Virus record (IMG/VR): IMGVR_UViG_3300012983_000048 | Origin: a virus | DNA length: 64,000 nt | Direction: 5' to 3' (one strand) | Shown: positions 4,137-39,249 of the stretch, piece by piece | How positions within the stretch are numbered: position 1 is the stretch's first letter | Layout of the letters: every line of letters begins with the position of its first letter | Position numbers and translations under genes: made by a program | The notes under the pieces: generated by a model | Database searches by the model: none | What the model was told of the DNA's origin: nothing | The model's input: the letters and a program-made list of their open reading frames with translations, nothing else

Positions 4137-4139
4137 ATA

Positions 4140-10558: not shown

Positions 10559-10944
10559 TAAAAGATAATGAAACATTGAACCAAAGAAGAAAATTATCAT
10601 ATATGATAAATGTTTGGGATGATGTTTCATTACCATATACAATTGATTATGATAATATAATAAACAATGTTATTAAATTTTTTGAGACAGAATCTGAATT
10701 AGTATATCCTGCTAAATCATATTTTGTAGCAATTGTTTATGCTAAATGTTTGGAAAAATATTTTAGCATACCATTCTATGAGTCATTAGATTATGAGGAT
10801 TTATTATTTGATGACAAATATTTTGTGAAATATTCTAATAATAATGATGTATATGATAAAATTATTGAAAAAATTGGTGATATATGGCAATATAAATCAA
10901 TAGATAAAACAGTTGAATATTTTAAAAAAGAGTTTTTAATATGA
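10555..10944 (+). CDS. hypothetical protein
   Basis: 129-aa ORF overlapping its neighbours by 4 nt on each side (translational coupling). Confidence 0.45.
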   Translation: MIKDNETLNQRRKLSYMINVWDDVSLPYTIDYDNIINNVIKFFETESELVYPAKSYFVAIVYAKCLEKYFSIPFYESLDYEDLLFDDKYFVKYSNNNDVYDKIIEKIGDIWQYKSIDKTVEYFKKEFLI

Positions 10945-11738
10945 AAACCATATATGCAATACCAACATATAATTGTAATTTAAATTGTCCTCATTGTGAT
11001 ATACACAAAAGAAAAATACAATTTGATGAAGAAAAATTTATGGAAACACTAATTGATATACATGCAGATAGCATTGTCTTATTTGGTGGTGAACCTTTTT
11101 TAAATAAAGATGTCCTTAAAAAATGTATAGAAACAAATAAAATTAACAGCATATCCACAAATTTATTATTATTAGATAATGACATATTTAACTTAATACA
11201 AGAATATAATATATCATTAGCAACATCATGGAATCCAAAGAGATTTACAACAGAACAATACAAACTATGGTTGAATAATTTATCTAAATTTAAAAATACA
11301 AATACACCAATAGATGTGTTAATAACAATGACAAATGATTTGATAACAATGAGTGATGAAAGATTATTAAAAATATTATCTGATATTGATTATTTGGAAT
11401 CTGTTGATGGTATAGTGTTTGAGCATTTATTAGATAATAACCTTGATAATTTATTTCACCAAAGATGTGATGAGTGGTTATGTAAAATACACAATTTATG
11501 GAAATTTAAATTAAAAAATGTTATTGAAGAACGAGTTTTAAATTGGAATAATGATTGTTCAGATATATGGACATTAGAACCAACAGGTGAATTAAGATTT
11601 GGTTGCCCACAATACATAGGAAGAAAGATTGTTGATAAATGTTTAACATGTGAATTGGTTTCAAAATGCAAACCATGTATGTTACAAAAACATTGTAGTT
11701 TTCCAAAGAAATTATATGAGGTATTAGGCAATGGTTAG
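10941..11738 (+). CDS. radical SAM protein with C-terminal Cys cluster (SPASM/twitch-like), singleton type
   Basis: CNLNCPHC (Cx3Cx2C) at aa 12-19. GGEPFL SAM-binding motif. C-terminal CPQY..CLTCELVSKCKPCMLQKHC. Confidence 0.7.
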   Translation: MKTIYAIPTYNCNLNCPHCDIHKRKIQFDEEKFMETLIDIHADSIVLFGGEPFLNKDVLKKCIETNKINSISTNLLLLDNDIFNLIQEYNISLATSWNPKRFTTEQYKLWLNNLSKFKNTNTPIDVLITMTNDLITMSDERLLKILSDIDYLESVDGIVFEHLLDNNLDNLFHQRCDEWLCKIHNLWKFKLKNVIEERVLNWNNDCSDIWTLEPTGELRFGCPQYIGRKIVDKCLTCELVSKCKPCMLQKHCSFPKKLYEVLGNG

Positions 11739-12795
11739 TTCAGCAATTGATTGTGTTTTGTTTGATATGTGTAATTTAAATTGCAAACATTGTTTTCAAC
11801 AACACAATGTATTTAAATTCAATAAGGATAAAATTGATGAGTTTGTTTATCATATAGATAAAACAATTAGTGATGATATTAAAACCAAATCTATATCAAC
11901 TGTTTTATTATCATTGAGAGGTGGGGAGTTATTCCAGGATAGTTTAGGTGATGATGTATTTGGTCTATATAAACAAATGATAGAAAATATAAATTTTTTA
12001 TGCAAGACAAAATATCCATTAATTAATATTAAATATCATTTTATGACTAATGGAATATATAATAATATTGATAGAGTTGTTGATTTTATTCAATCAGTAA
12101 ATGGTGTCATGACATTATCATATGATCCAATTGGAAGATTTAAAACAGATAAACAATTAGAATTGTTTTATAGAAATTATGAAATTCTTAAAGAGAAAAA
12201 ATTGATAAAAAATATAGCAATAACATTGACAAAGGATTCTATTATAGAATATATTAAGAATAAAAATTTATTAAAACAGTTTTATCAGACAGATATTGAT
12301 ATAAATTATTATATACCAACAATGAATGGATTTGATTTACCATCAGATGATGATATATTTGATTTTTATAAATTTTTATTAGATAATGATATATTTAATG
12401 TGTTATATGTACAAAATATTTTAAACAGTTATATATATGGAACTCCAATTGGTCCAATTTGTTTATGTGATAATACTACTATTATATACAATAACAATTC
12501 ATATAGAAGTTGTAATGTTTATATACCAAATTATAAATTGAGTGACTTTTATGATGATACAAATATAAAAGATTTAGATGCTGTTGAATCAATAAAGAAA
12601 CAAGGTTTAAAGAAAAGAAATTGCATAATGTGTGAATATTATAAAAACTGTTCATATTATTGTTGGATGATGTTGTGTTATAGAAAATTTAAAATGTCAG
12701 AATGTCCCCATAAACGTATATATAAATATATTGAAAATAATTCAAAGATAATAGAAAACTTTAAAATATGGAAAAACACAAATGATATTAAATAA
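11731..12795 (+). CDS. radical SAM/SPASM-like protein, sub-family A (member 1 of 4 tandem)
   Basis: CNLNCKHC. LRGGELFQD. Tail RNCIMCEYYKNCSYYCW..ECPHKRI. Overlaps the previous ORF by 8 nt. Confidence 0.7.
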   Translation: MVSSAIDCVLFDMCNLNCKHCFQQHNVFKFNKDKIDEFVYHIDKTISDDIKTKSISTVLLSLRGGELFQDSLGDDVFGLYKQMIENINFLCKTKYPLINIKYHFMTNGIYNNIDRVVDFIQSVNGVMTLSYDPIGRFKTDKQLELFYRNYEILKEKKLIKNIAITLTKDSIIEYIKNKNLLKQFYQTDIDINYYIPTMNGFDLPSDDDIFDFYKFLLDNDIFNVLYVQNILNSYIYGTPIGPICLCDNTTIIYNNNSYRSCNVYIPNYKLSDFYDDTNIKDLDAVESIKKQGLKKRNCIMCEYYKNCSYYCWMMLCYRKFKMSECPHKRIYKYIENNSKIIENFKIWKNTNDIK

Positions 12796-13882
12796 CATTT
12801 ATCATAAAGAGTATGAAACTAATCTTGGAATTGATTGTATATTGTGGGAACAATGTAATAATAATTGTCTTCATTGTTTTCAACAACATTTAAAACAAGA
12901 TATTGATATAAATTTTTTAAAGACTCTTCCACCAATATTATTAAAAGATATTGATGATGAAATTATAAAAAGAAAAGTATCAAATATAAAATTATCATTG
13001 AGGGGTGGGGAGTTATTCCAGGATAGTTTAGGTGATGAATATTTTACAGAATATGAAAATATTATATCTTATATAAGACATAATTTATCTAATAAGTATC
13101 CAAATATAACAGTAAATTTTGATGTTATTTCAAATGGATTGTTTAAAAAAGTAGATAGATTTATTGATTTTGTTAAGAAGACAAATTGTAAAGTGTCATT
13201 ATCATATGATCCATATGGTAGATTATTTACACAAAAACAAAAAGATGTATTTTTAAATGTATATAATATATTAAATGAAAGTGGATATTTACGTGATATA
13301 TCAATTACACTAACAAAACCTTGTATTCAGCATTATATAAATGGAGATAGTGATTTAGAAATGTTTAGAAAGTGTGATGATATTGATATAAATTATTATA
13401 TACCAAATAAAAATTGGAAATTTTTATTACCAAGTGATGATGATTTATATAATTTTTTCAAATGGTTGGTTGATAATAATTATTTTAATGTTGCATATAT
13501 ACAAAATTTAATAAAAAGTATTATAAACAAAGATTACAGACCAAACAGAAGTTGTTCTTGTAATAATAGAATTATACACAACAAAGGCATCAAAACAACT
13601 AAATGTTCTGAATATATGGGTGGTATGGATGCTAAAGATTTTTATGGTGATGCTTTTGAAACAATGACAGAAGATAATTTTAATATTATTTCTGCATCTA
13701 TTGGTGTTAAAAAAAGAGGTTGCCAAATGTGTAAATATTATGATAAATGTCAAATGTGTTGTTGGTCCTCATTTAATTTTAAACATTATGAAGTTGGGGA
13801 ATGTCCCCATAAAAGAATTACCGAATATATAATAAACAATCAACAAATTATAGAAAGATTTAGGAATACTATTAATGACTGA
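12782..13882 (+). CDS. radical SAM/SPASM-like protein, sub-family A (2 of 4)
   Basis: CNNNCLHC. LRGGELFQD. GCQMCKYYDKCQMCCW..ECPHKRI. Shares a 43/44-nt near-identical tract with ORF 11731. Confidence 0.7.
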   Translation: MILNNIYHKEYETNLGIDCILWEQCNNNCLHCFQQHLKQDIDINFLKTLPPILLKDIDDEIIKRKVSNIKLSLRGGELFQDSLGDEYFTEYENIISYIRHNLSNKYPNITVNFDVISNGLFKKVDRFIDFVKKTNCKVSLSYDPYGRLFTQKQKDVFLNVYNILNESGYLRDISITLTKPCIQHYINGDSDLEMFRKCDDIDINYYIPNKNWKFLLPSDDDLYNFFKWLVDNNYFNVAYIQNLIKSIINKDYRPNRSCSCNNRIIHNKGIKTTKCSEYMGGMDAKDFYGDAFETMTEDNFNIISASIGVKKRGCQMCKYYDKCQMCCWSSFNFKHYEVGECPHKRITEYIINNQQIIERFRNTIND

Positions 13883-15020
13883 ACTTTTAACTTATCCAAA
13901 TTGGTCATATAAAACACCATTTATACCATTTTATAAAGATCCAACCCTTTATGAAATATCTTGTCTTTTATTTGAAAGATGTAATTTAAAATGTAAGTTT
14001 TGTTTTGAAGGTCATAGAAACAATAAAATAGATGTTGATTATATAAGAAAAATACCAAATCTAATAATTGATAACTTCAAAGAAGAATATAAGAAATATA
14101 ACAATATCAAAGAAGTTAATATAATGCTTTGGGGTGGAGAGTTATTTTTTGATGCATTACCTGACTCATTATTTGATGAATATAAGTTGTTGGTAGATAA
14201 TTTTAGAGAGTTATTTAGTGAATCATTTCCAAATATAAAAATTAGATTTTCATGGTTATCAAATGGGGTTTTTACTAAATGGGAAAGAGTGAAAGATATA
14301 ATTGAATATTCTAATGGTATAATTAATTTCTCATATGATCCAATTGATAGGTTTGGTTCATATAAACAAAAGGAATTAATGCTAGAAAATTCTAAAAGAT
14401 TTTATGAATTTGGTTTGAGTGAAGTTGTGTCTATAACACTAACAAAACAAAATATTAATGAATTCATATCAAACACAACAGATATAAACACCATGATGTC
14501 AACCATTGATGTTAATTTTTATATACCAAATAAAAATTGGGAAGAACTAATGCCAACAGATGATGATATATTTAATTTCTTTAAATGGGCATTAGATAAT
14601 AGATTGTTTCATATTAAAGTTATAGAGAAATTAATTTGGTATTATACAACCGAATATATTCAAAGACACTGTGATTGTAAAAGTTGTTCTCAATTAACAT
14701 ATGGTGAATGGAGTGTTGATTGTGCTAAACGAAGTTCTGAACTCCCAACAGAAATGTTTTTTGGTGAATATGCTAATATAATAAATGAAGAAAATAGTAA
14801 TGATATTAAGGTGTCATTGGGTATTAAAAAAAGAGGTTGCCAACTGTGTAAATATTATGATAGATGCCAAATGCCTTGTTGGATAAGTATGGTATTTAGT
14901 GAATATAAAACAACAAGATGCCCATATGAGAAAGCATATGAATATATTGAAATTAATAAAGATATATTATATGATTATATGAATTGGTGTGGTAAGGAAA
15001 TAAAATGTTTAGTAAAATAA
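13875..15020 (+). CDS. radical SAM/SPASM-like protein, sub-family A (3 of 4)
   Basis: CNLKCKFC. LWGGELFFD. GCQLCKYYDRCQMPCW..RCPYEKA. Carries 104-nt and 50-nt tracts identical to ORF 15005. Confidence 0.7.
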   Translation: MTELLTYPNWSYKTPFIPFYKDPTLYEISCLLFERCNLKCKFCFEGHRNNKIDVDYIRKIPNLIIDNFKEEYKKYNNIKEVNIMLWGGELFFDALPDSLFDEYKLLVDNFRELFSESFPNIKIRFSWLSNGVFTKWERVKDIIEYSNGIINFSYDPIDRFGSYKQKELMLENSKRFYEFGLSEVVSITLTKQNINEFISNTTDINTMMSTIDVNFYIPNKNWEELMPTDDDIFNFFKWALDNRLFHIKVIEKLIWYYTTEYIQRHCDCKSCSQLTYGEWSVDCAKRSSELPTEMFFGEYANIINEENSNDIKVSLGIKKRGCQLCKYYDRCQMPCWISMVFSEYKTTRCPYEKAYEYIEINKDILYDYMNWCGKEIKCLVK

Positions 15021-16120
15021 ATTTAGCAAAACAAGATAAAATACATAATGATAATAAGTTTGGTATTGATTGCCTTTTATTTGAAAGGTGTAATTTAAAA
15101 TGTAAGTTTTGTTTAGAAGAACATTCAAATAATAATATTGATTATGATTATATAAGAAAAATACCATATGATATTGTTGATAGAATGAAGGAAGAAATAA
15201 AAACACATAAAGATATCAAAGAAGTTAATATTAGATTATGGGGTGGAGAATTATTTTTTGATGCATTGCCTGACACATTATTTGATGAATATAAGTTGCT
15301 GGTGGATAACTTTAGAAAGTTATTTAGAAAAGATTTGAATGATGTTAATGTAACATTTTCTTGGATTTCTAATGGTGTTTTTACTAAATGGGAAAGAGTG
15401 AAAGATATAATTGAATATTCTAATGGGTTTATAGGATTTAGTTATGATCCAATTGATAGATATTCATCAGACACACAAAAAGAAATGTTTTTTAAAACAG
15501 TAGAATATTTTTATAATAATGACTTATTAAGTGATATATCAATCACATTGACAAAGAGAACAATTAATTGTTATATTAGTGGTAATAGTGATATTGAAAA
15601 GTTAAGAAAATATAAAAAGTTTGATGTTAATTTTTATATACCAAATAAAAATTGGGAAGAACTAATGCCAACAGATGATGATATATTTAATTTCTTTAAA
15701 TGGGCATTAGATAATAGATTGTTTGGTATATATGATATAGAAAAACTTGTTATGACATCAATGAATACTTCAAAAACAATTGGTAGAACCTGTAATTGTG
15801 ATAAACATTTATCACATTGTAAAAATTGTGTAACATATAATTGTGTTAAAAGTTCAACAATATTTGGAAATGATATGTTTTATGCTAATGAAACACAAAA
15901 CATTACAGAAGATTCTGTTTCAAATATTAAAGCATCATTGGGTATATTAAAAAGAGGTTGTTTAACTTGTAAATATTATGGTTCATGCTCAATGCCTTGT
16001 TGGACATCTATATTGTTTAAACATTATAAAATATCAGAATGTCCATATAAGAAAGCACATGATTATATAACAAACAACAAACACATAATAGAGAAATATA
16101 ATGAATACAAAAAATCTTAA
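15005..16120 (+). CDS. radical SAM/SPASM-like protein, sub-family A (4 of 4)
   Basis: CNLKCKFC. LWGGELFFD. GCLTCKYYGSCSMPCW..ECPYKKA. Confidence 0.7.
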   Translation: MFSKINLAKQDKIHNDNKFGIDCLLFERCNLKCKFCLEEHSNNNIDYDYIRKIPYDIVDRMKEEIKTHKDIKEVNIRLWGGELFFDALPDTLFDEYKLLVDNFRKLFRKDLNDVNVTFSWISNGVFTKWERVKDIIEYSNGFIGFSYDPIDRYSSDTQKEMFFKTVEYFYNNDLLSDISITLTKRTINCYISGNSDIEKLRKYKKFDVNFYIPNKNWEELMPTDDDIFNFFKWALDNRLFGIYDIEKLVMTSMNTSKTIGRTCNCDKHLSHCKNCVTYNCVKSSTIFGNDMFYANETQNITEDSVSNIKASLGILKRGCLTCKYYGSCSMPCWTSILFKHYKISECPYKKAHDYITNNKHIIEKYNEYKKS

Positions 16121-16985
16121 TTTATCTATTATACCATTATATCATTGTAATATGAATTGTGATTATTGTTATTTGGGTAATATGAAAAATGATAAAACCA
16201 TATTATCATTAAAAACACTTGATGAAAAAATTGCTGAATTATTACACAATGGTTATGATTTTTCACATATTTCAATATATGGTGGTGAAATAAGTTTATT
16301 AGATAAAAAATATCTTGATAATCTAATATATTTAATTAGAAAATGGGAAATAAATGTAACAACAAATTTGACAAATGATTGGATTATAGATTATTGTAAA
16401 AATAATAATATTCATATAAATGTATCATTAAATGAGGAAAGAAGCAATTATGAATATGTTTTAAAAAAAATAAAAAACATTGATTGTTCAATAACATCTG
16501 TTGTTCTTCCATCATTATTAGAAAAAGATATTAATAGTGTGTTAGAATTTTATAATTTGCTTGGTAAAAACGTTTATTTTTTGGAGTATAACCCGTCAAT
16601 ATATTGTAATAAGTATGATATATCAACAAAAGATTTTATTATATTTTTAAAGAATATTATAAATGAATATAATAAGGGTGACTATTGTTTTGATATAGAA
16701 AATATGAAATATTTAAATGATGATGAATACAATCCAACACAAAGTGGGTTTGTATTTATATTGCCAAATGGAAATTATGGGACAGTTGAATATAAAGATT
16801 CAATAGAACATTTAGTTGAGTTTGAATCAATCAATGAGTGGGAAAAGTATATTGTTAAAGAAAGAAAAGATTATTTAAAAAATTGTTGTTTATGTGAATT
16901 TTTTGATAAGTGTAAAGCAGAGCATTTAAAAACATTTTCAAAACCTTATTGCTCTGGTTTATATGATATTATTAAAAATAAATAA
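16101..16985 (+). CDS. radical SAM protein with short Cys tail
   Basis: CNMNCDYC at aa 16-23. IYGGEISLL. C-terminal CCLCEFFDKCKAEH..YCSG. Confidence 0.65.
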   Translation: MNTKNLNLSIIPLYHCNMNCDYCYLGNMKNDKTILSLKTLDEKIAELLHNGYDFSHISIYGGEISLLDKKYLDNLIYLIRKWEINVTTNLTNDWIIDYCKNNNIHINVSLNEERSNYEYVLKKIKNIDCSITSVVLPSLLEKDINSVLEFYNLLGKNVYFLEYNPSIYCNKYDISTKDFIIFLKNIINEYNKGDYCFDIENMKYLNDDEYNPTQSGFVFILPNGNYGTVEYKDSIEHLVEFESINEWEKYIVKERKDYLKNCCLCEFFDKCKAEHLKTFSKPYCSGLYDIIKNK

Positions 16986-17012
16986 TTGTATAATTTATTA
17001 TAAGGATTAAAG

Positions 17013-17732
17013 ATGGGTGTAACACAAAATCAAAAAATACAAAAAGTTACAGCAAATAATATAGTTGGTGCAATAACTGATTTTAATACAAATGTATTAA
17101 CAAAAGCATATAATCAAGCAACATACCATAGTGGTAATGTTCCAAAATTTTCTGGAACAGCAAATATTGGTTCAAATAATGTTGGGAGTGTTGGTTTTAC
17201 TAATCCAGCAGCATTACCATCAAATCAAATGTTGTCCAAAAGTGTTCCATCTTTAACATTATCTGATACTACTATATCTGCATCATCACTTTGGTCTCAG
17301 ATGTTAACAATGACACGAGCATTAAATAAGATTAGAAAATTTACATCAACATGGTATCATAGACAATTTACAACAGTAAACGATGATGCAAACTCATCTG
17401 ATCCAAATGGTGGTTCATTAATTAATAAAGGTTCAGTTTCAGGGACATGTGTTATAAATGCATCTTTCCCGGCAGTTCCAACAGCATCAAATGCATTAGG
17501 TGGTTCATCAACTTCTTGGGAAAGGAGTGGTACAACCTCAATAACATTGAATCCAAGTAGTGCCCTAACAACAAATGCCCAAATAACAGCTGGAAATATG
17601 AACACAACAATTACAAATTGTTATAATACATGGTATAATACTTGTATATCTGCAAACACATTGACATACAATTTATATACATGCCATTTAAATTGTCATG
17701 GTAATTGTTATGGAACAAGATCAAGGAGATAA
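17013..17732 (+). CDS. Ser/Thr/Asn-rich protein with Cys-rich C-terminal tail, a candidate radical-SAM substrate
   Basis: 239 aa with RBS AAGGA. Low-complexity S/T/N-rich body. The last 40 aa are ITNCYNTWYNTCISANTLTYNLYTCHLNCHGNCYGTRSRR (5 Cys). No enzymatic motif. Sits in the middle of the radical-SAM array. Confidence 0.5.
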   Translation: MGVTQNQKIQKVTANNIVGAITDFNTNVLTKAYNQATYHSGNVPKFSGTANIGSNNVGSVGFTNPAALPSNQMLSKSVPSLTLSDTTISASSLWSQMLTMTRALNKIRKFTSTWYHRQFTTVNDDANSSDPNGGSLINKGSVSGTCVINASFPAVPTASNALGGSSTSWERSGTTSITLNPSSALTTNAQITAGNMNTTITNCYNTWYNTCISANTLTYNLYTCHLNCHGNCYGTRSRR

Positions 17733-18460
17733 TGATGTTAAATAGTGGATTACCATATAGTGATGAAATATTAAACAAACCAATGGATGAACATTTAATT
17801 GTTGATATGTCTGATATTAAGTTTGATGGCATATTAATGTCTCAATATGCAAATATATCTATAATTTATTTAAGAAATACAGATTTAAAAAATATAAAAC
17901 TTGATTTTACAAAATCAGATTATGATTTTAAGTGTGATATGTTAAAGCAATATTTAATTGGTGATATTGAATATCAAATTGTTGAATTAGATGATACTTG
18001 GTTAAAAATCTTGGGAATGTATTATAATACATCATATAATACAAATGATTGTATATTGACAGATGATGAAATGAAGAAATTTATAGAAGATAATGAAAAA
18101 TTAATTATAGATGTTTTAACATTTTGTTTTTCATTACCATTATATCCATTATCAAGGTTAGATATGGTTGAAGAAGATAAATTTACTTTTGATGATGTAA
18201 CACATATTTGTGGTAAACCATTTAATAGTAATATTTGTAACTTGATTAAAAATGAGTGTTTTATGTTATTATTTGATAATAATGATATATCTATTAAACC
18301 ACATTTTTATGATGATATATTTACAGAATCAAACAATAAATTATTTGAATGTGTATCTAAATATACACCATTTACAGCATTATTATATGGGATGAGTAGT
18401 GGTGATGGATGGAAAGAATTTAGTAAAGGTTTAGCAGAATATGTTGATGGGGTAAATTAA
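17732..18460 (+). CDS. hypothetical protein
   Basis: The ORF track starts at 17705, but AGGAG at 17724-17728 followed by ATGATG at 17732 is the likelier start, overlapping the upstream stop as TAATG. Confidence 0.45.
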   Translation: MMLNSGLPYSDEILNKPMDEHLIVDMSDIKFDGILMSQYANISIIYLRNTDLKNIKLDFTKSDYDFKCDMLKQYLIGDIEYQIVELDDTWLKILGMYYNTSYNTNDCILTDDEMKKFIEDNEKLIIDVLTFCFSLPLYPLSRLDMVEEDKFTFDDVTHICGKPFNSNICNLIKNECFMLLFDNNDISIKPHFYDDIFTESNNKLFECVSKYTPFTALLYGMSSGDGWKEFSKGLAEYVDGVN

Positions 18461-18461
18461 T

Positions 18462-19499
18462 ATGCATAATGCTTTGAGTTTGGATATTTTAAAAGAAGAT
18501 ATCAGATATAATGATGACATTGAATATGATGTTGGTGATGATATATATCAACCAATTGTTGAAAGAGAACGAGGGAATATTGAAGATGAACTTGGTGAAA
18601 ACCCTTCATTGCCTGCATATGATAGGTATATTGTTGAAAAACTTGGTTTATCAGAATATTCACCAAAAATAATTACAGAAGATATACCATTGGAAACAAA
18701 TGATTTATCATATATTACTTCAATATCAACAAATGATTATTATGATTTTAATAATGAAATACTTAAAGATTTTCAAAATATCAAAATCTTTACAGAAGAT
18801 CCAATGGATGAAGAAACCTATAATTTATTAATACACGAAAGATATGATGGTATAAGATATTATGCACAAACAGATACCCTTGTTATTCCTGCACCAATTA
18901 AAAAGCATATAGATGATGGTGAAACTGTAAAAGCAAAAGTAACATTATATAATATGGATATGGCAACAGTAAAACATCAAATATTTAAATATCCATCTGA
19001 ACAATATATAAAACCAAAGGTTGAATTCCAATATTTACCAAAAACAGTAAAATGGAGTAAATTAACAGAAGAAAAGTTTGGTGAATTTACATATAAAGAT
19101 AATCCAAATTTTACAACTACATATTTATATAAAAATATGCCACGAGAATATTTAAAACAAATGGTTTATGAAACCGAGGTTTTAACATATGATTTGACTG
19201 ACAAAGCATATTATTGTCATGCAAATGCAAATTTTACAAAAGCAAGTCTGTTGGTTAAAGATTGTGTTGAGAATGGATTAAAGAGAGTTATACAGTTGAA
19301 ATTAACACCAGATGGTGTTTTGAGACCATACTATTCTAATAAAAGAATATTATCGGCATTATATACAAATGTTCCTACAATACCCGTTTGTATTATGATG
19401 AATACAACATATTTGGGAACATATGATTTATATTACAATCCACCAGTGAATAAAGATTTAATTAATAAATTAGTAAACCCACACATAACAATTTTATAA
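18462..19499 (+). CDS. hypothetical protein
   Basis: 345-aa ORF starting 2 nt after the previous stop. No motif recognised. Confidence 0.45.
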   Translation: MHNALSLDILKEDIRYNDDIEYDVGDDIYQPIVERERGNIEDELGENPSLPAYDRYIVEKLGLSEYSPKIITEDIPLETNDLSYITSISTNDYYDFNNEILKDFQNIKIFTEDPMDEETYNLLIHERYDGIRYYAQTDTLVIPAPIKKHIDDGETVKAKVTLYNMDMATVKHQIFKYPSEQYIKPKVEFQYLPKTVKWSKLTEEKFGEFTYKDNPNFTTTYLYKNMPREYLKQMVYETEVLTYDLTDKAYYCHANANFTKASLLVKDCVENGLKRVIQLKLTPDGVLRPYYSNKRILSALYTNVPTIPVCIMMNTTYLGTYDLYYNPPVNKDLINKLVNPHITIL

Positions 19500-19503
19500 A
19501 AGC

Positions 19504-20403
19504 ATGAGCATCATTGATAGAATTAAAATAGCATCAACAAGTATTGATTTATCTTGTAGTAATTTACCAACAGCAGTAAAATTGGAATTATCTGGTGTTT
19601 GCAATCATAAATGTTATTATTGTGTTGTTCCAACATTAAAAGGTTTGAAGAAGTTTATGCCTATTGATGTGGTTAATAAAACAATTGAAGAAATTAGAAG
19701 ATTAAATATAAAAGAAATTGGTTTATTTCATATGGGTGAGGGAACTTTACATCCACAATTTTGTGAAATAATTGATATAATACTTAATGGTTGTAATTCA
19801 AAGTTGTTTATAACAACTAATGGAACAAGAATAGATGAATTAAAATATTTGGTAAAAAATAACATACAATCAATTAAATTTTCATTAAATGGGTATAATA
19901 AAGAAACACACTTAAAAGCAACAGGTGTTGATACATTTGATAAAATAATAGAAAATATAAAATTGCTTATTAAATATAGAAATGATATAATATCATCAAC
20001 AGAAATATCTGCATCATCAATCTTCTACAATAATACAGAACAAGATGATTTTGTTGATAAAATGTCAAAAATTGTTGATAATTATTATTTTACTGAGATA
20101 TATTCTCATGCTGATAAAGTTATAAACAAATACATAGATTTAACAAATAATCCAAGAATTATTAATGGATTGTGTGGAAATATACCATGCTATGGTATGT
20201 ATAATTTATGTCATATAAAGACAAATGGTGATGTAAATTTGTGTAGGTGGGGAGTGGATGATGAGTTTGTTATTGGTAATATTATGGAAACTCCATTGGA
20301 TGAACTATGGTTTTCTGAAAAAGCAATGAATTTGAGAAATGAATCACTTGCAGGTAAATTAAAAACATGTAACATTTGCACGGGTATAAAAAATGGAATA
20401 TAA
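19504..20403 (+). CDS. radical SAM/SPASM-like protein
   Basis: CNHKCYYC. HMGEGTLHP. C-terminal CGNIPCYG..CHIKTNGDVNLCRWG..CNICTG. Confidence 0.65.
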   Translation: MSIIDRIKIASTSIDLSCSNLPTAVKLELSGVCNHKCYYCVVPTLKGLKKFMPIDVVNKTIEEIRRLNIKEIGLFHMGEGTLHPQFCEIIDIILNGCNSKLFITTNGTRIDELKYLVKNNIQSIKFSLNGYNKETHLKATGVDTFDKIIENIKLLIKYRNDIISSTEISASSIFYNNTEQDDFVDKMSKIVDNYYFTEIYSHADKVINKYIDLTNNPRIINGLCGNIPCYGMYNLCHIKTNGDVNLCRWGVDDEFVIGNIMETPLDELWFSEKAMNLRNESLAGKLKTCNICTGIKNGI

Positions 20404-21379
20404 TATATATCTTAAATTAACTAATGGGTGTCAACTTAAATGTGAGCATTGTTATAATGAAATAATGATGAATCATAATCATATGAAAGAAGATGTTTTG
20501 GAAGATGTATTAATCTGGTTAAAAGAATTTTGCAACAAACACCCAAATGATGATATAAATGTCACATTACATGGTGGAGAACCTACCCTATATGATTTAG
20601 ATAAAATTTTATATATTATTGAATCAGTAAATGAAACAAATATAATGTGGGAAATAACAACAAATCTTGTTTATGAATTGACAGATAAACATATTCAAAT
20701 TTTTAAAAAGATGCATAAATCATTTATAAAAACATCTTGGGATTATAAAATAAGGTTTAATGAAGAACAAGAAGAATTGTGGTTGAATAATGTTAGAAAA
20801 CTCAAATCTATTGGTATAGAAGTTCAACCAATTGTTTGTTTGACAAAACAACTTATAAAAGATTTAAACCCAAATTATATTTTTGATATGTTTTCAAATC
20901 TTGGACTCAAATATTTTAATTTTGAAAGAATTACATCAACTGGTAGAGCAGATGTAAATGATGTGAGACCAAACAATTCTGATTTAGATAAATGGTTATT
21001 AGATGCATTTAAAATATATGAGAATACAAAATTTTATATACCATTATTTAGTGGAGTTAAAGAAGGGATTAAGGGGAATTTGATTGGTTGTAGGAGAAGA
21101 CAATGTATGAGAACTGTTACAACCATAAATCCTAATGGAACAATCTCTAGTTGTCCAAATATGGCAAATATTTCATATGGAACATTAAAAACCATTGATG
21201 AAAACAAGAAAAAAATGCTATATAATTTTGAAGATAATAAAAATATTGGTTGTTTGTGTTGTAAATATTTTAAACAATGTAATGGTGATTGTTGTCAATT
21301 ACAATGGGATAACACAGGTTGTCCAGGAATGTTATCAATATATAAATATTTGGAGTTAAAAAATGGAATTAGTAATTAA
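20393..21379 (+). CDS. radical SAM/SPASM-like protein, sub-family B (paralog of 26026)
   Basis: CQLKCEHC. LHGGEPTLYD. CRRRQCMRTV..SSCPNM..CLCCKYFKQCNGDCCQLQWDNTGCPGM. Confidence 0.7.
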   Translation: MEYNIYLKLTNGCQLKCEHCYNEIMMNHNHMKEDVLEDVLIWLKEFCNKHPNDDINVTLHGGEPTLYDLDKILYIIESVNETNIMWEITTNLVYELTDKHIQIFKKMHKSFIKTSWDYKIRFNEEQEELWLNNVRKLKSIGIEVQPIVCLTKQLIKDLNPNYIFDMFSNLGLKYFNFERITSTGRADVNDVRPNNSDLDKWLLDAFKIYENTKFYIPLFSGVKEGIKGNLIGCRRRQCMRTVTTINPNGTISSCPNMANISYGTLKTIDENKKKMLYNFEDNKNIGCLCCKYFKQCNGDCCQLQWDNTGCPGMLSIYKYLELKNGISN

Positions 21380-22301
21380 ACCAACAAGAGCATGTAATTT
21401 CCATTGTTCATTTTGTTCTTCTAATTTGATTCCAAATAAAGTATTGGAGTCGGATAAGGTTATTAGTTTTTTAAAAGAATTTCCAGAAACAAAAAGTATA
21501 ATTGTTAATGGTGGTGATCCATTAATGATGAAACCACAATTCTATTATGATATTATTGAACACATAAGAAGTGAAAAACTAAATTGTATTATATCTTTTA
21601 CAACAAACTTATGGGATTGGTATATTAACACAGATAAATGGGATGATTTGTTTAGACAACCCGAGATTGGTATATGCACATCTTTTCAATATGGAAATGG
21701 ACGGATAAAACCAAATTATACATTATTTACAGAAGATGATTTTTTAAAAATATTTTATAAATTTGAGGAATTATATAATGAAAAATTGACATTTGTTAGT
21801 GTTGTTACAAATGAAAATGCTGGATATGCAATTGATAATGTTAAATTGGCAAAAAAACTTGGAACAGAATGTAAATTAAATCCTGCCGTTAAATCTGGGA
21901 GACAAGGGTATCACTATCCATTGGATAAAATGTATGATATATACTTACAATTATTTGAAACTGATGACTTATATAAATATGAATCAAATTGTTTAAATTT
22001 AATAAATTTCTTTAATAATAGAGATACAACATGTCCATTATCAAACAGAACATGTTATAAAAATATAAAATGTATGGGTCCAGATGGTAATATGTCAACA
22101 TGTCCATCCCTTGATGATGATTATATATATGATTCATATCAGTATAAAATAATAAAGAATGAATGTTATATGTGTGAGTTTTTTAATATTTGTAATGGAT
22201 GTATGAAAAGAGTTCATGATTTAAAGGATGATACATATGATTGTTATAATTTAAAAAACACATTAATGTGTATAAAAAATATTTGTAATAACATAAAATA
22301 A
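21363..22301 (+). CDS. radical SAM/SPASM-like protein
   Basis: CNFHCSFC at aa 11-18. VNGGDPLMM. CPLSNRTCYKNIKCMGPDGNMSTCPSL..CYMCEFFNICNGCMK. Confidence 0.65.
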   Translation: MELVIKPTRACNFHCSFCSSNLIPNKVLESDKVISFLKEFPETKSIIVNGGDPLMMKPQFYYDIIEHIRSEKLNCIISFTTNLWDWYINTDKWDDLFRQPEIGICTSFQYGNGRIKPNYTLFTEDDFLKIFYKFEELYNEKLTFVSVVTNENAGYAIDNVKLAKKLGTECKLNPAVKSGRQGYHYPLDKMYDIYLQLFETDDLYKYESNCLNLINFFNNRDTTCPLSNRTCYKNIKCMGPDGNMSTCPSLDDDYIYDSYQYKIIKNECYMCEFFNICNGCMKRVHDLKDDTYDCYNLKNTLMCIKNICNNIK

Positions 22302-22334
22302 CCAGTAATAAATATACTTATAAGAGGTAAATTA

Positions 22335-23027
22335 ATGATTGAAAAATATGACGAACAGCAATTAAAAGAATTATTAAATGGTGAAGATATTGATATCAAT
22401 TTTTCTGATTCTATTTCAGAAGAAGATTTGGTCAAATCATTATCATATATATATGATTATGAAAATTCTTTAGATATTATTCCAAATATAAGAGTTTTAT
22501 TAAAGGGAATTAATATTGATAAATTATCGGTTGCAATTAAATACTCCTTAGATAGAGAAGATTTAAAAGATCCATTAATGTTATTAAATATTATGAATTT
22601 GATTAAAAGTGGATTAAAACTTAATGAATATTTCTTTAAAGATGAAAACATTTATATTTCATCTATTACTGATTTGTTAAATTTGAAATTAAAAATTAAA
22701 AATGAACTAGAAGCATTTATTCAAAAAATGAGTATTCATTTTATTGCATTGTTTAAATCATATAACAAATTAACATTTACTCCATTAGATAAACACATTC
22801 AATTACCTAACATTTATAGAAATTTGTTTTTATCAAGTGATTTATTAACATTATCTGGTATATTTTCATTGAGTAAACCATTTAATACTGATGAATGTGT
22901 TTATATTGAAAATTCTTGTACCATTATATCTCAATTATTAATGAAGAGTTCAATTGGTATTAGTTTATTGAGTGATTTTTTAAGGAATGAAGATGACAAT
23001 AGAAGTAGGGAAGAAGATAACATATAA
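22335..23027 (+). CDS. hypothetical protein
   Basis: 230 aa with RBS AGAGG. No motif recognised. Confidence 0.45.
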   Translation: MIEKYDEQQLKELLNGEDIDINFSDSISEEDLVKSLSYIYDYENSLDIIPNIRVLLKGINIDKLSVAIKYSLDREDLKDPLMLLNIMNLIKSGLKLNEYFFKDENIYISSITDLLNLKLKIKNELEAFIQKMSIHFIALFKSYNKLTFTPLDKHIQLPNIYRNLFLSSDLLTLSGIFSLSKPFNTDECVYIENSCTIISQLLMKSSIGISLLSDFLRNEDDNRSREEDNI

Positions 23028-23595
23028 AGATTTGGCAGATAAAATATATGAATTAATAATCAATAAATGTGATAATATTGATAAAACTATTCCTATAAAT
23101 GGTCAAACATATACAATATCTTCAACAAGTAAAACAAAATGTACATTAACTATTAATGATAATAAGCTTGTTCCTATAAGTGCATCAGTTGTTAAAACAC
23201 AACTTGATTCATTTTTATCTTCAAGGGGTATAAAATCAAAAGAAAATGAAGTTATTACATTTAAAGGTATGATGAATTTTTATGCAAATATCTCATCCTT
23301 TTTATCTGCAAAGATGGTTTTGGTTGGATCAAGTTTTAGGGGTGAAAAATATGTAATTTATAATGCAAGTGCAACTAATTATACAAGTGTTCAAACTGCA
23401 TTAAAAGATAAGAATTATACAAAAGCACAAATAGAAACAGATGTTAATTCATTATTAAATGCAATTAACTCAACATCAAAAGTATTTTATCCCGCAACAA
23501 CTATTACTTATACATGTTCATCAAGTAGTTCAAGTTCATCAAGTAGTTCTTGTTCATCAAGTAGTTCAATGTTTATAGCATATATGGAAATATAA
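22987..23595 (+). CDS. hypothetical protein with C-terminal poly-Ser/Cys tract
   Basis: 202 aa ending TCSSSSSSSSSSSCSSSSSMFIAYMEI. The N-terminus ITYKDLADKIYELIINKCDN is paralogous to the next ORF. An alternative start MTIEVG lies at 22993. Confidence 0.45.
   Translation: MKMTIEVGKKITYKDLADKIYELIINKCDNIDKTIPINGQTYTISSTSKTKCTLTINDNKLVPISASVVKTQLDSFLSSRGIKSKENEVITFKGMMNFYANISSFLSAKMVLVGSSFRGEKYVIYNASATNYTSVQTALKDKNYTKAQIETDVNSLLNAINSTSKVFYPATTITYTCSSSSSSSSSSSCSSSSSMFIAYMEI
23521..23570 (+). repeat. coding TCA/AGT serine-codon microsatellite (tcatcaagtagttcaagttcatcaagtagttcttgttcatcaagtagttca)
   Basis: A 16-17-nt unit tcatcaagtagttc(a/t) repeated about 3 times. Encodes the Ser18 tract with two Cys. 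Confidence 0.6.
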
Positions 23596-24161
23596 TGATA
23601 AGTGGAAATATAACATATAAAAATATTACAGATAAAATCCTTGCTTTTATCAATAATAATTGTCAAAATGTTGGTAGTAAATATGATAGTATGGATGCAT
23701 GTTTTAAATCATATGATACAGGAAATTTTAAAATTCCGGGTTCTAAAAATGCACTAATAAGATTTTATTTAACCAATAATAAGGTTGAAAGAAAAGAAAC
23801 AAGTAATGTTAATAGTGATTTTGAGAACTTTTTAAAGAATATTGGTGTTTATAATAAATTGAATCAACAAATATTAGATGGAGAATTATATCATTTGATT
23901 AATAATATGGTTGGGTTTTGTATAGAAAATTTAAAATTTTCTATAAGTCAATATTCATCAAAGAAATATCTAATATATACAGGTGGAGTATTATCACTAC
24001 CCACTTCATTATACCATACAATTGGTGATGAAAAAACAGACAGAATTGATGCTAAAGATGTCAATGATATCTTTACTATTATTATGGATAAGTTACATAA
24101 TAAAATTAGAGTCATCCCTGTTGAATATACTGCTTCTTTAAAAGATCCATATACAGAATAG
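23595..24161 (+). CDS. hypothetical protein (paralog of ORF 22987, without the poly-Ser tail)
   Basis: MISGNITYKNITDKILAFINNNCQN aligns with MKMTIEVGKKITYKDLADKIYELIINKCDN. TAATG overlap with the upstream gene. Confidence 0.45.
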   Translation: MISGNITYKNITDKILAFINNNCQNVGSKYDSMDACFKSYDTGNFKIPGSKNALIRFYLTNNKVERKETSNVNSDFENFLKNIGVYNKLNQQILDGELYHLINNMVGFCIENLKFSISQYSSKKYLIYTGGVLSLPTSLYHTIGDEKTDRIDAKDVNDIFTIIMDKLHNKIRVIPVEYTASLKDPYTE

Positions 24162-24223
24162 ATAAAGATTAAATATTGTCATTAATATTAAATTATTATA
24201 TAATATCTCAAAAGGAGAAATAT

Positions 24224-25105
24224 ATGGTATGTAAACCTGTTTATGAATTTTTACTTTGGGATAATTGTAATAATAATTGTAAATTTTGTTTTCAAAGAAA
24301 GAATGGAATTATTCTGTCTCCATTGAATAAAATAAAATCTTTAAATTGTGTGTTAGAATTTTTAGATTCTAATGATTATGTAAATGGCAGTCATGTTTTA
24401 TTAGTTGGTGGTGAAATTTTTGATGAATCTAACCTTTTGATTATTAATGATTACGTAAATTTTTTTGAGAAAATTGTTGATAAAATGAACAGCAACAGTA
24501 TTGATTTATTATACATCAATACAAATTTATTGTATAACAATATGGGAATTTTAAATAAATTATTATCTCTTATTGATTATGATAACTTATGGGATAGGTT
24601 AAAATTTACAACATCATATGACTTAGAAGGTAGATTCTCAACAAAAGAAAAAGAAACCTTATTTTTGACAAATCTTAAATATGTAAAAAATACATATCCA
24701 AAATGTAATATAGTAGTCAACACAATATTAACAAAACAAACATGTGAAAAAATTTTAAACAATGTATTTAATCCAAAAGATTTTTGTGATGAATATAATT
24801 GTGATATAAATCTTATACCATATATTGTTTATACAGAAGAATTATCAGCAACAAGAGAACAAATATTTTCAACCTTAATTAAAGTTAATGAATTAATACC
24901 AAATTATTTTAATAGATATGTTGATAATTTTAGTTTAAAACAGGATAAATTATTATACAAGTATGATAATAAAAAACAATCTTTAACATTTGTATCATGT
25001 GATAATATGGAATGTGGTCATTCACAAAATTTTAAATTATATTCTAGTGATAACAGATGTTTTATATGTGATTTAATAGAATTATCTAAATTGTTTGGAG
25101 AATAA
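24224..25105 (+). CDS. radical SAM protein, sub-family C (1 of 4; motif at extreme N-terminus)
   Basis: AAGGAG 6 nt before ATG at 24224. MVCKPVYEFLLWDNCNNNCKFCFQ. LVGGEIFDE. C-terminal CDNMECGHSQN..CFICD. Confidence 0.65.
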   Translation: MVCKPVYEFLLWDNCNNNCKFCFQRKNGIILSPLNKIKSLNCVLEFLDSNDYVNGSHVLLVGGEIFDESNLLIINDYVNFFEKIVDKMNSNSIDLLYINTNLLYNNMGILNKLLSLIDYDNLWDRLKFTTSYDLEGRFSTKEKETLFLTNLKYVKNTYPKCNIVVNTILTKQTCEKILNNVFNPKDFCDEYNCDINLIPYIVYTEELSATREQIFSTLIKVNELIPNYFNRYVDNFSLKQDKLLYKYDNKKQSLTFVSCDNMECGHSQNFKLYSSDNRCFICDLIELSKLFGE

Positions 25106-25106
25106 G

Positions 25107-26024: not shown

Positions 26025-26025
26025 A

Positions 26026-27716: not shown

Positions 27717-27717
27717 T

Positions 27718-30153: not shown

Positions 30154-30163
30154 AGGATAAAAT

Positions 30164-31177: not shown

Positions 31178-31178
31178 T

Positions 31179-36247: not shown

Positions 36248-36425
36248 AATTGTTTCCTGTATCTATTATAAAATATTATATAGATATTTATGGGTTTTTA
36301 ATTATGTTATATTTCTTATTTTGTTTCTAACCATTCATCATATTCTAATGGGTTTATTAACCACCAATTTTCTGTATCTGTATAATTTAATAGATATTTT
36401 CTATAAGTAGCAATATTTTCTCTTT

Positions 36426-37331: not shown

Positions 37332-37335
37332 ATTA

Positions 37336-38613: not shown

Positions 38614-38623
38614 TTATTTCCCC

Positions 38624-39235: not shown

Positions 39236-39249
39236 GTGTAATAAAATCC

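What the first reader, a model, noticed from the sequence alone, without database searches (positions are those of the whole stretch)
14506..15724. Perfectly identical 104-nt and 50-nt tracts between adjacent diverged radical-SAM paralogs
ORFs 13875..15020 and 15005..16120 differ at many positions over most of their length, yet 14506..14609 is identical to 15621..15724 (104 nt, encoding VNFYIPNKNWEELMPTDDDIFNFFKWALDNRLF). In addition, 14269..14318 is identical to 15377..15426 (50 nt, encoding the SNGVFTKWERVKDIIEYSNG region). Likewise 11911..11954 matches 12991..13034 at 43/44 nt between ORFs 11731 and 12782. Mosaic identity islands inside diverged tandem paralogs indicate recent gene conversion or recombination. 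This suggests the array is diversifying (concerted/mosaic evolution) and that these particular segments are under strong constraint, for example a shared partner- or substrate-binding surface.
Basis: seen in the sequence. Interest (0 to 1): 0.6.

Follow-up and report, generated by a model that had tools for sequence, protein, structure and literature searches.

The report
Gene conversion between phage enzyme paralogs
Two neighbouring, otherwise strongly diverged radical-SAM enzyme genes of an uncultured giant phage share short stretches of perfectly identical DNA because they have recently copied sequence from each other, an ordinary evolutionary process caught here in unusually clear detail.

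Summary
14506-14609 equals 15621-15724 exactly (104 nt). A 50-nt exact repeat is 14268-14317 = 15377-15426 (reader off by 1). The 43/44 match is 11911-11954 vs 12995-13038 (reader off by 4).

The two genes are 68% identical in DNA and 56% in protein. Shuffles give a longest run of about 21 nt, and orthologue pairs at equal divergence give 16-25 nt. With the amino acids held fixed, the 34-codon run has P = 1e-4. The tracts share rare codons. dS is 0 inside the tract and pS is 0.40-0.80 outside.

g13875 belongs to subfamily A throughout. g15005 belongs to subfamily B at both ends, but residues 41-160 and 206-240 are closest to g13875. This points to repeated interlocus gene conversion, mostly A to B.

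Six further contigs (MEGAHIT-style k141, SPAdes-style NODE, Logan and scaffold names) reproduce the locus, and tract borders differ between strains. One 2.2-kb contig carries a single in-frame A-core/B-tail hybrid gene whose switch lies inside the 104-nt tract. That is either an unequal-crossover deletion or an assembly collapse.

Protein constraint explains where the tracts lie, at the family's best conserved stretch. It does not explain their DNA identity. This is a known mechanism: a new, well-documented example, of moderate interest.

The parts
13875..15020 (+). g13875, 381 aa, radical-SAM enzyme with a Cys-rich C-terminal domain. It is subfamily A along its whole length and is the likely donor of the 104-nt tract and of the older central block.
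   Evidence: Pfam PF04055 33.6 bits against a cut-off of 29.5. CX3CX2C at residue 36 and CX2CX5CX3C at residue 322. A-type in every informative segment. AlphaFold2 model pLDDT 94. Best PDB fold matches are ChlB, a viperin-like enzyme and SkfB.
15005..16120 (+). g15005, 371 aa, radical-SAM paralogue. It is a mosaic: subfamily B at residues 1-40 and 241-371, and g13875-like at residues 41-160 and 206-240.
   Evidence: Pfam PF04055 30.9 bits. Segment identities and column bootstraps. Second-best BLASTP subject of the B gene of L009, after L6_4873.
14506..14609 (+). 104-nt identity tract, copy in g13875 (residues 212-245: last beta strand and following helices of the radical-SAM core).
   Evidence: Exact identity. 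dS = 0. Secondary structure E210-215, H222-225, H229-241. The amino-acid motif DVNFY...WALDNRLF is A-type.
15621..15724 (+). 104-nt identity tract, copy in g15005 (likely acceptor). Its right end is the point where g15005 returns to B-type sequence.
   Evidence: In strain L008 this copy carries one SNP (window 15628), which shortens the run to 96 nt.
14268..14317 (+). 50-nt identity tract, copy in g13875 (residues 132-148, helix 136-145).
   Evidence: It is extended to 56 nt in L008.
15377..15426 (+). 50-nt identity tract, copy in g15005.
15125..15484 (+). Older exchanged block in g15005 (residues 41-160), about 80% identical in DNA to g13875 14016-14375. It contains the 50-nt tract and further exact runs of 22-26 nt.
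   Evidence: 300 nt at 79% identity (family D3). 72% amino-acid identity to the paralogue against a mean of 51% to A and 44% to B orthologues. Bootstrap that the paralogue beats the best orthologue = 1.00. dN 0.19, pS 0.44.
11731..12795 (+). g11731, 354 aa, subfamily C radical-SAM paralogue and donor of the short tract. It is largely deleted in strain L008.
12782..13882 (+). g12782, 366 aa, second subfamily C paralogue and acceptor of the short tract.
11911..11954 (+). Short tract, copy in g11731 (43/44 identical; 35-nt exact core 11920-11954). It encodes SLRGGELFQDSLGD and uses rare codons.
12995..13038 (+). Short tract, copy in g12782. Strain L008 differs here at 5 sites within 33 nt (12998-13030), and at all five the window allele equals g11731.
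   Evidence: 24 SNPs over the 1,079 nt compared, so about 1 is expected in 44 nt.
12292..12319 (+). 28-nt exact run with 13379-13406, at the same DIDINYYIP motif that carries the 104-nt tract in the other pair.
10941..32868 (+). Context: a co-directional, tightly packed array of 25 ORFs, 16 of which carry the radical-SAM CX3CX2C motif. Fibre-like genes flank it on both sides.
51226..53337 (+). Context: phage gp46-like (SbcC/Rad50-type) recombination nuclease subunit. It is consistent with a phage-encoded homologous-recombination system that could drive the exchanges.
   Evidence: PHROG 77, E = 5e-91. 31-32% identity to features that several jumbo-phage records annotate as Gp46 / recombination endonuclease subunit.

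Best explanation
The identity tracts are footprints of recent non-allelic (interlocus) gene conversion between neighbouring radical-SAM paralogues in the genome of an uncultured jumbo myovirus.

Shown:
- g13875 is the subfamily-A gene and g15005 the subfamily-B gene of a conserved C-A-B gene order.
- g15005 has taken up g13875-like sequence at least twice. The older exchange covers residues 41-160 and is now about 80% identical in DNA. The recent exchange or exchanges left the perfect 104-nt and 50-nt tracts.
- The adjacent pair g11731/g12782 shows the same pattern on a smaller scale.
- Other strains carry the same tracts with shifted borders.

Inferred:
- During replication-coupled homologous recombination, probably by the phage's own T4-like machinery, strand invasion starts where the paralogues still share enough DNA identity. 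Those places are the best conserved protein motifs of an AT-rich, codon-biased genome. Repair of the heteroduplex then copies a patch of some 50-150 nt from one gene into the other.
- The tracts in turn provide homology for unequal crossing-over. The predicted product, one in-frame gene with the A radical-SAM core and the B Cys-rich tail and 1,115 bp deleted, is exactly what contig L004 shows.
For: - Exact tracts of 104, 50 and 35 nt.
- Shuffle tests: P < 5e-5 by codon columns; P = 1e-4 and 0.003 at silent sites only.
- Shared rare codons: P = 2.9e-6, 1.6e-4 and 5.7e-6.
- dS is 0 in the tract, against pS 0.40-0.80 in all other segments.
- Empirical control: seven pairs with 64-67% DNA identity or from the same locus have longest aligned exact runs of 14-27 nt.
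- Segment incongruence. g15005 is B-type at residues 1-40 and 241-371 (bootstrap P(A>B) = 0.01 and 0.00). At residues 41-160 and 206-240 it is closer to g13875 than to any of 32 orthologues (bootstrap 1.00).
- The tract motif DVNFY...WALDN is A-type.
- The C-A-B order recurs in L006 and L009.
- Independent assemblies. L002 is identical over 9.1 kb. L003 has 26 SNPs, none in the two genes. L008 (SPAdes-style name, 98.4% identical) has both genes with runs of 96, 56 and 46 nt.
- Polarity for the short tract: in L008, g12782 differs at 5 sites in 33 nt exactly in the tract, and the window allele equals g11731.
- The five window-specific alleles of g13875 all fall within 102 nt (14166-14267) next to the 50-nt tract. 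At four of them every other strain has the g15005 base.
- L004: 73 consecutive informative sites A-type, later a long uninterrupted B-type stretch, with the switch inside the tract.
- A gp46-like recombination nuclease is encoded in the window.
Against: - No reads were available, so the identity rests on consensus assemblies. Bubble merging by an assembler could hide one or two real differences between the copies.
- Non-reciprocity, the formal hallmark of conversion, cannot be shown from end products.
- The direction for the 104-nt tract rests on a few subfamily-typical residues, and some B members also have WAxDN.
- pS in the older block (0.44) is as high as in the unexchanged C-terminal part (0.45). 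Its age is therefore argued from protein-level incongruence, assuming that synonymous sites are saturated.
- SNPs between strains in the two genes are not, taken as a whole, significantly biased towards the paralogue's base. 22 of 24 have one allele matching the paralogue, against roughly 19 expected by my own estimate.
- L004 may be an assembly collapse.
Confidence: 0.85

Rival explanations
1. There was no sequence exchange. The tracts are the most strongly constrained protein segments, and in a 26% G+C genome with extreme codon bias identical amino acids simply give identical DNA.
For: The 104-nt tract covers the family's best conserved stretch outside the cluster motifs. Same-amino-acid codons are identical in 70% of cases even outside the tracts. 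In other phages the longest exact runs between paralogues, 23-35 nt, also fall on this motif. The third tract is not significant in the silent-site shuffle (P = 0.18).
Against: With amino acids held fixed, the 34-codon run has P = 1e-4. The tracts share rare codons: CTA 4%, TTC 10%, TTG 20%, GTG 8%. Orthologues are only about 64% identical in protein in this segment and have no long runs there. Amino-acid identity jumps from 35% to 97% and back to 39% at the tract borders.
Confidence: 0.04
2. Assembly artefact. The short-read assembler merged or collapsed two similar but non-identical paralogous segments, which produced artificial identity.
For: All data are short-read metagenome assemblies. 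Bubble popping can homogenise near-identical repeats. L004 has exactly the shape of a collapsed tandem loop.
Against: The two-gene arrangement with the tracts is reproduced in the window, in two contigs with k141 names (if that denotes MEGAHIT's largest k-mer, it exceeds the 104-nt repeat) and in one contig with a SPAdes-style NODE name from other samples. Contigs L011-L013 run through the A copy. Assemblers did keep single SNPs inside the tracts in L008 and in L011/L012. Even a few hidden SNPs would leave the contrast with pS of 0.4 or more intact.
Confidence: 0.04
3. The tracts are functional DNA or RNA elements kept identical by selection on the nucleotide sequence. Examples would be a regulatory RNA structure, an internal signal, or a dedicated recombination site for programmed shuffling of enzyme modules.
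For: The 104-nt tract lies at the junction between the radical-SAM core and the Cys-rich C-terminal domain. The only hybrid gene seen switches there.
Against: The RNA fold is not better than shuffles (z = -1.39). There is no Rfam match in 10900-17000. Other strains carry substitutions inside the tract. Relatives with A/B pairs lack it. Pfam scans of 40 ORFs of the window, about 40% of its ORFs of 60 aa or more, found no reverse transcriptase or site-specific recombinase, and PHROG scans of 10 large ORFs found none either. The repeats are direct and sit at homologous, in-frame positions, as plain paralogy predicts.
Confidence: 0.06

Closest known systems
Interlocus (ectopic) gene conversion and concerted evolution of tandem or dispersed paralogues. 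Examples are bacterial rRNA operons (PMC8022953, abstract listed) and Caenorhabditis paralogues (PMC3966223, abstract listed); bacterial tuf genes are an example from my own knowledge.
   Same: Short tracts of complete identity inside otherwise diverged paralogues. Synonymous sites are homogenised. Phylogenetic signal differs between tract and flanks. Exchange is favoured where identity is already high. Tract length of about 50-150 nt is in the usual range.
   Different: Here the partners are only 68% identical overall and belong to two old subfamilies, so exchange is confined to islands at conserved motifs and does not homogenise whole genes. The setting is a lytic-type jumbo phage, not a cellular chromosome. 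Strain-level snapshots show tract borders moving.
Unequal crossing-over between tandem paralogues that yields fusion genes (classical examples from my own knowledge: haemoglobin Lepore, opsin hybrids).
   Same: L004 carries a single in-frame hybrid with the 5' part of the upstream gene and the 3' part of the downstream gene. Exactly one repeat unit (1,115 bp) is missing, and the switch lies in the longest identity tract.
   Different: The hybrid is not verified at read level and could be an assembly collapse. It joins the catalytic core of one subfamily to the auxiliary-cluster domain of another.
Recombination-dependent replication and high-frequency homologous recombination of T4-like phages (PMC3016280, abstract listed).
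   Same: The window encodes a gp46-like nuclease subunit, so the same kind of machinery is plausibly present.
   Different: A recombinase (UvsX-like) was not looked for or seen in this window. The link between this machinery and the tracts is inference.
Radical-SAM/SPASM peptide maturases (ChlB, SkfB, PapB, anSME).
   Same: CX3CX2C motif, partial TIM-barrel core, and a C-terminal Cys-rich domain with CX2CX5CX3C. The best fold match is ChlB (E = 1e-9).
   Different: All NCBIfam scores are far below the family cut-offs (for example PapB 20.6 against 340). No precursor peptide gene was recognised. Sixteen such genes stand in one phage array.

Membership tests
Interlocus gene conversion between paralogues | The identity tract is significantly longer than background divergence allows. 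| tested here: met
   104 and 50 nt, against a shuffle mean of 21 and a maximum of 60 in 20,000 trials. Comparison pairs give 14-27 nt.
Interlocus gene conversion between paralogues | Synonymous sites are homogenised in the tract but not in the flanks. | tested here: met
   dS is 0 in the tract and pS is 0.40-0.80 elsewhere. Silent-label shuffle P = 1e-4. Rare codons are shared.
Interlocus gene conversion between paralogues | Phylogenetic incongruence: the tract groups the paralogues together, while the flanks group each gene with its orthologues. | tested here: met
   Identity-based segment analysis with column bootstraps against 17 A and 15 B orthologues. A full tree for each segment was not built.
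Interlocus gene conversion between paralogues | Non-reciprocal transfer: the donor stays unchanged and the acceptor is overwritten. | tested here: inconclusive
   Direction is inferred from subfamily-typical residues and from the unconverted g12782 allele of L008. The event itself cannot be observed in end products.
Interlocus gene conversion between paralogues | The feature is not an assembly artefact. | tested here: met
   Seven contigs from other samples cover the locus; four contain both genes and show the tracts, and three span only the A gene and the start of B. Their names follow four conventions. No read-level check was possible.
Radical SAM superfamily (PF04055) | CX3CX2C cluster motif and a Pfam score above the gathering threshold. 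| tested here: met
   g13875 scores 33.6 bits and g15005 30.9 bits against 29.5. Motifs at residues 36 and 29. Fold matches to radical-SAM structures.
SPASM/twitch auxiliary-cluster domain (PF13186, TIGR04085) | C-terminal CX2CX5CX3C motif with a profile match. | tested here: inconclusive
   The motif is present in both genes, and the Cys residues are invariant in 60 homologues. Neither gene has a PF13186 or TIGR04085 hit; only g19504 (PF13186) and g26014 (TIGR04085) reach the cut-offs.
Named RiPP maturase families (PapB, anSME, YhhB and others) | Score above the NCBIfam curated cut-off. | tested here: not met
   Best scores are 16-25 bits against cut-offs of 180-445.
Diversity-generating retroelement (template/variable repeat pair) | A reverse transcriptase nearby, a non-coding template repeat, and adenine-specific differences between the repeats. 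| tested here: not met
   Both copies are coding, sit at homologous positions of homologous genes and are identical. Pfam scans of 40 of the window's ORFs found no reverse transcriptase; the remaining, mostly smaller ORFs were not scanned.

The most novel reading that the evidence does not exclude
The identity islands are not just passive footprints. Because the longest one sits at the joint between the radical-SAM core and the auxiliary-cluster domain, it would work as a recombination joint. Through it the phage population would keep producing in-frame module-swapped enzymes, such as the A-core/B-tail gene of L004. The 16-gene radical-SAM battery between the fibre-like genes would then diversify combinatorially, in the way tail-fibre mosaics or antigen cassettes do.
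Probability: 0.12. Interest if true: 0.7.

Novelty: new member of a known kind. Interest (0 to 1): 0.38.

Why it matters
The finding dates and orders exchange events in a large, so far undescribed array of radical-SAM genes in uncultured jumbo phages. It shows that the array is structurally fluid at strain level. Subfamily copy number ranges from 1 to 4 among relatives. One gene is deleted in one strain. A possible core/tail fusion gene occurs in another. Conversion patches have shifting borders.

For anyone who builds trees or infers orthology and function for these enzymes, the mosaicism matters. A whole-gene tree wrongly makes g13875 and g15005 sister genes. For assembly and binning of such phages, exact intragenic repeats of about 100 nt are a concrete source of collapse.

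The mechanism itself is textbook biology.

Tried and rejected
- BLASTN ('distant' mode) of 11731-16985 against 50,697 phage records gave no match. Cultured jumbo phages have only single homologues at 22-27% identity.
- An exact-pattern scan for the tract core in the JGI metagenome contigs and in IMG/VR gave no hits, so no further strains came from there.
- RNA element: the fold z-score is -1.39 and there is no Rfam hit. Rejected.
- DGR or site-specific shuffling: Pfam scans of 40 ORFs and PHROG scans of 10 large ORFs found no reverse transcriptase or recombinase, and the repeats are direct, coding and homologous. Rejected.
- SNP direction test between the window and L008 in the two genes: 22 of 24 SNPs have one allele equal to the paralogue. 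That is close to what 68% identity predicts by my own estimate, so the test is uninformative as a whole. Only the clusters are informative.
- Search for a paralogue donor of the window-specific patch 14166-14267: neither g11731 nor g12782 fits.
- dS as a clock for the older block: pS is 0.44 in the exchanged block and 0.45 in the unexchanged C-terminal part, which I read as saturation, so it is uninformative.
- An all-against-all codon alignment of the 16 radical-SAM genes timed out. Only the pair g20393/g26014 was examined.
- Literature searches for phage radical-SAM arrays found nothing relevant.
Full report
**1. Observation**

The window has 26% G+C and looks like a phage. It carries fibre-like genes at 3003-8528 and 34121-40815, an NAD-dependent ligase and a gp46-like nuclease. 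Between 10941 and 32868 lie 25 co-directional, mostly overlapping ORFs. Sixteen of them carry the radical-SAM CX3CX2C motif.

- 104 nt, 14506-14609 = 15621-15724, not extendable on either side.
- 50 nt, 14268-14317 = 15377-15426.
- 35 nt, 11920-11954 = 13004-13038, the core of a 43/44 match 11911-11954 vs 12995-13038.

A further 28-nt run, 12292-12319 = 13379-13406, lies on the same protein motif as the 104-nt tract.

**2. More than chance and more than protein constraint**

g13875 and g15005 are 56% identical in protein and 67.7% in DNA.
- Shuffling codon columns gives a mean longest run of 21 nt and a maximum of 60 in 20,000 trials.
- Shuffling only the synonymous same/different labels, with the amino-acid pattern fixed, gives P = 1e-4 for the 34-codon run and P = 0.003 for the 16-codon run.
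- The tracts share rare codons (CTA 4%, GTG 8%, TTC 10%, TTG 20%; GGG, GAG and CAG at 10-15% in the third tract). The probability that a second gene picks the same codons for the same amino acids is 2.9e-6, 1.6e-4 and 5.7e-6 respectively.
- By Nei-Gojobori counting, dS is 0 in the tract and pS is 0.40-0.80 in every other segment.
- As an empirical control, the comparison pairs at similar divergence (orthologues from other phages, and paralogues within those phages) have longest aligned exact runs of only 14-27 nt.
- The third tract is weaker on its own: column shuffle P = 6e-4, silent-site shuffle P = 0.18.

**3. What the two genes are**

Protein searches found about 150 homologues. Nearly all are unnamed and come from metagenomes. 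Several sit on contigs of 200-480 kb. Cultured jumbo phages have only single homologues at 22-27% identity.

A neighbour-joining tree and locus comparisons define three subfamilies:
- A: g13875, L6_3780, L5_8512, L1_6745, L9_10001.
- B: L6_4873, L5_9659, L9_11094.
- C: g11731, g12782, L6_2690, L9_8958.

The order C-A-B is found in L006 and L009, and A-B-C in L005. Only a single A gene is present in L001 and L010.

The whole-gene tree makes g13875 and g15005 sisters, but segment analysis shows this is a mosaic effect. g13875 is A-type everywhere. g15005 behaves differently along its length:
- Residues 1-40 are B-type: mean identity 0.63 to B against 0.43 to A, bootstrap P(A>B) = 0.01.
- Residues 241-371 are B-type: 0.47 to B against 0.38 to A, bootstrap P(A>B) = 0.00.
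- Residues 41-160 are closer to g13875 (0.72) than to any of 32 orthologues (bootstrap 1.00).
- Residues 206-240 are likewise closest to g13875 (0.97; bootstrap 1.00).
- Residues 161-205 are fast-evolving and uninformative.

The tract's amino-acid motif, DVNFY...WALDNRLF, matches the A consensus rather than the B consensus DINYY...WVvDN. Immediately outside the tract each gene returns to its own type.

I conclude that g15005 is the positional B orthologue that has received g13875-like sequence at least twice. The older block is now about 80% identical (family D3). The recent patch or patches are still perfect. The age ranking of the older block rests on protein-level incongruence, because pS is as high there as elsewhere.

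**4. Strain-level evidence**

The database holds seven contigs of this locus from other samples.
- L002 (k141 name, 102.8 kb) is identical to the window over 9.1 kb. L003 (k141 name) has 26 clustered SNPs, none in 13316-18191.
- L008 has a SPAdes-style NODE name and is 98.4% identical. It has both genes, but with exact runs of 96, 56 and 46 nt instead of 104, 50 and 23 nt.
- L011, L012 and L013 carry the complete A gene followed by the start of B.

If k141 denotes MEGAHIT's largest k-mer, as the naming suggests, those assemblies spanned the 104-nt repeat. The tracts are thus reproducible across assemblies with different naming conventions, and assemblers did retain single SNPs inside them (15628 in L008; 14291 and 14556 in L011/L012).

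Three observations point to conversion rather than conservation.
- In L008, g12782 differs from the window at 5 sites within 33 nt (12998-13030), exactly in the short tract. About 1 is expected from 24 SNPs in the 1,079 nt compared. At all five sites the window allele equals g11731, including the rare codons TTC and CAG. L008 itself lacks most of g11731.
- All five window-specific alleles of g13875 fall within 102 nt (14166-14267), directly left of the 50-nt tract. At four of them every other strain has the g15005 base. By my estimate the chance of such clustering is roughly 3e-4. No other paralogue fits as donor.
- Tract borders therefore differ between strains that are only 1.5-2% apart.

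**5. The hybrid gene**

Contig L004 (2,198 bp) runs from the 3' part of g12782 into g16101 but contains one 376-aa gene in place of two.
- Among sites that distinguish the paralogues, the first 73 are all A-type and the last part is almost purely B-type. The switch lies inside the 104-nt tract.
- Isolated B-type sites occur in the A part (7 of 15 differences) and A-type sites in the B part (3 of 6).
- Its A part is identical, at all 20 sites that are polymorphic among strains, to the A gene of L011/L012. L012 comes from another sample with the same study prefix in its record name and has the normal two-gene arrangement.

The hybrid is exactly the product expected from unequal crossing-over in the tract: a 1,115-bp deletion, in frame, joining the A radical-SAM core to the B Cys-rich domain. 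It is equally the shape of a collapsed tandem loop in a de Bruijn graph. I cannot decide between these without reads, and I put it at about 60:40 in favour of a real variant. Either way, it confirms that the tract is a true repeat in that haplotype too.

Because A and B subfamilies exist in tandem in other phages, the two-gene state is ancestral and the hybrid is derived.

**6. Where the tracts lie in the protein**

An AlphaFold2 model built from a 60-sequence alignment has pLDDT 94 and pTM 0.92.
- The 104-nt tract encodes residues 212-245: strand 210-215 and helices 222-225 and 229-241. This is the last beta/alpha unit of the radical-SAM core. It comes just before the C-terminal domain that holds C266, C268, C283, the CX2CX5CX3C motif (322-335) and C349.
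- The segment is the best conserved stretch of the family apart from the cluster motifs.
- The 50-nt tract encodes residues 132-148 (helix 136-145).

The best solved-structure matches are the RiPP enzymes ChlB (E = 1e-9, TM 0.55) and SkfB, and a viperin-like enzyme. All NCBIfam hits to named maturase families are far below their cut-offs.

Constraint thus explains where exchange can start and be tolerated: residual DNA identity is highest at conserved motifs. In L009 and L006 the longest paralogue runs (35 and 23-27 nt) fall on the same motifs. It does not explain perfect DNA identity. A partner- or substrate-binding role for the segment was not tested.

**7. Rivals**

- An RNA or regulatory element is unsupported: fold z = -1.39, no Rfam match, and SNPs inside the tract in other strains.
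- A DGR or a site-specific system is unsupported. Both copies are coding and homologous, the repeats are direct, and no reverse transcriptase or recombinase appeared in the roughly 50 of about 100 ORFs scanned.
- Assembly artefact is unlikely given the independent assemblies, though read-level proof is missing.

**8. Mechanism and verdict**

The best explanation is homology-driven, non-allelic gene conversion during phage recombination, with confidence 0.85. The window encodes a gp46-like nuclease, and T4-type phages recombine at high frequency (PMC3016280). The link between that machinery and these tracts is inference. Exchange is seeded at conserved motifs and acts repeatedly and probably in both directions: A to B for the 104-nt tract and the older block, and B to A for the 14166-14267 patch in the other strains. 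The resulting tracts probably serve as substrates for unequal crossing-over.

This is a known kind of process. The example is new, clean and informative about the dynamics of a so far undescribed radical-SAM gene array in jumbo phages, for which literature searches found nothing. Interest is moderate.

Noticed in passing
window 10941-32868 (+): An array of 25 co-directional, overlapping ORFs, 16 of which have the radical-SAM CX3CX2C motif and several a SPASM-like C-terminus. It lies between fibre-like gene blocks (3003-8528 and 34121-40815). Relatives (L001, L005, L006, L009, L010) have similar arrays, partly next to large fibre- or RHS-like genes, and homologues sit on contigs of up to 480 kb. 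Full-text searches found no paper that describes such phage arrays.
   Followed up: partly
window 11784-12649, compared with L008 640-762: Strain L008 lacks about 866 bp inside g11731. This leaves an in-frame 40-aa remnant (N-terminal 5 aa joined to the C-terminal tail). The junction shows only loose T/G-rich microhomology, so this deletion is not a paralogue crossover.
   Followed up: partly
window 10827-11096 and 12869-13315, compared with L003: The 26 SNPs that separate L003 from the window over 9.1 kb are clustered: 13 in 270 nt, 10 in 447 nt and 3 in 387 nt, with none in 13316-18191. This suggests patchwise recombination between strains.
   Followed up: no
window 20759-20821 vs 26395-26457: A 63-nt patch at 86% identity (encoding NEEQEELWLNNVRK..IGIE) between the non-adjacent paralogues g20393 and g26014, which are only 56% identical in DNA and 40% in protein overall. 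It may be an older conversion between distant array members.
   Followed up: partly
window 17013-19499 (+): Three ORFs without radical-SAM motifs or Pfam hits (239, 251 and 345 aa) interrupt the array. By size and position they recur in relatives: 229/241/338 aa in L001, 230/238/343 in L006 and 226/234 in L009. They are candidates for partners or substrates of the enzymes.
   Followed up: no
window 48561-50571 (+): An ORF with a sub-threshold MamI restriction-endonuclease match (21.7 bits against 25) sits next to an N6/N4 DNA methylase (111.7 bits). This may be a phage-borne restriction-modification pair.
   Followed up: no
window 37260-37313 and 37975-37998 vs 39583-39606 (- strand fibre-like genes): Short exact repeats of 24 nt within and between the fibre-like genes 36426-37331, 37336-38613 and 39250-40815. 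These are the only other exact repeats of 24 nt or more in the window.
   Followed up: no
L004 1-32: The first 32 nt of the hybrid-bearing contig match nothing in the window (best 28/45), although the contig is collinear with g12782 from position 33 onwards. This may be a variable segment, a contig-end artefact or another junction.
   Followed up: partly
window 161-1360 (-): A 399-aa protein with BspA-type leucine-rich repeats (PF13306, 58.6 bits) lies at the edge of the fibre-like gene block.
   Followed up: no
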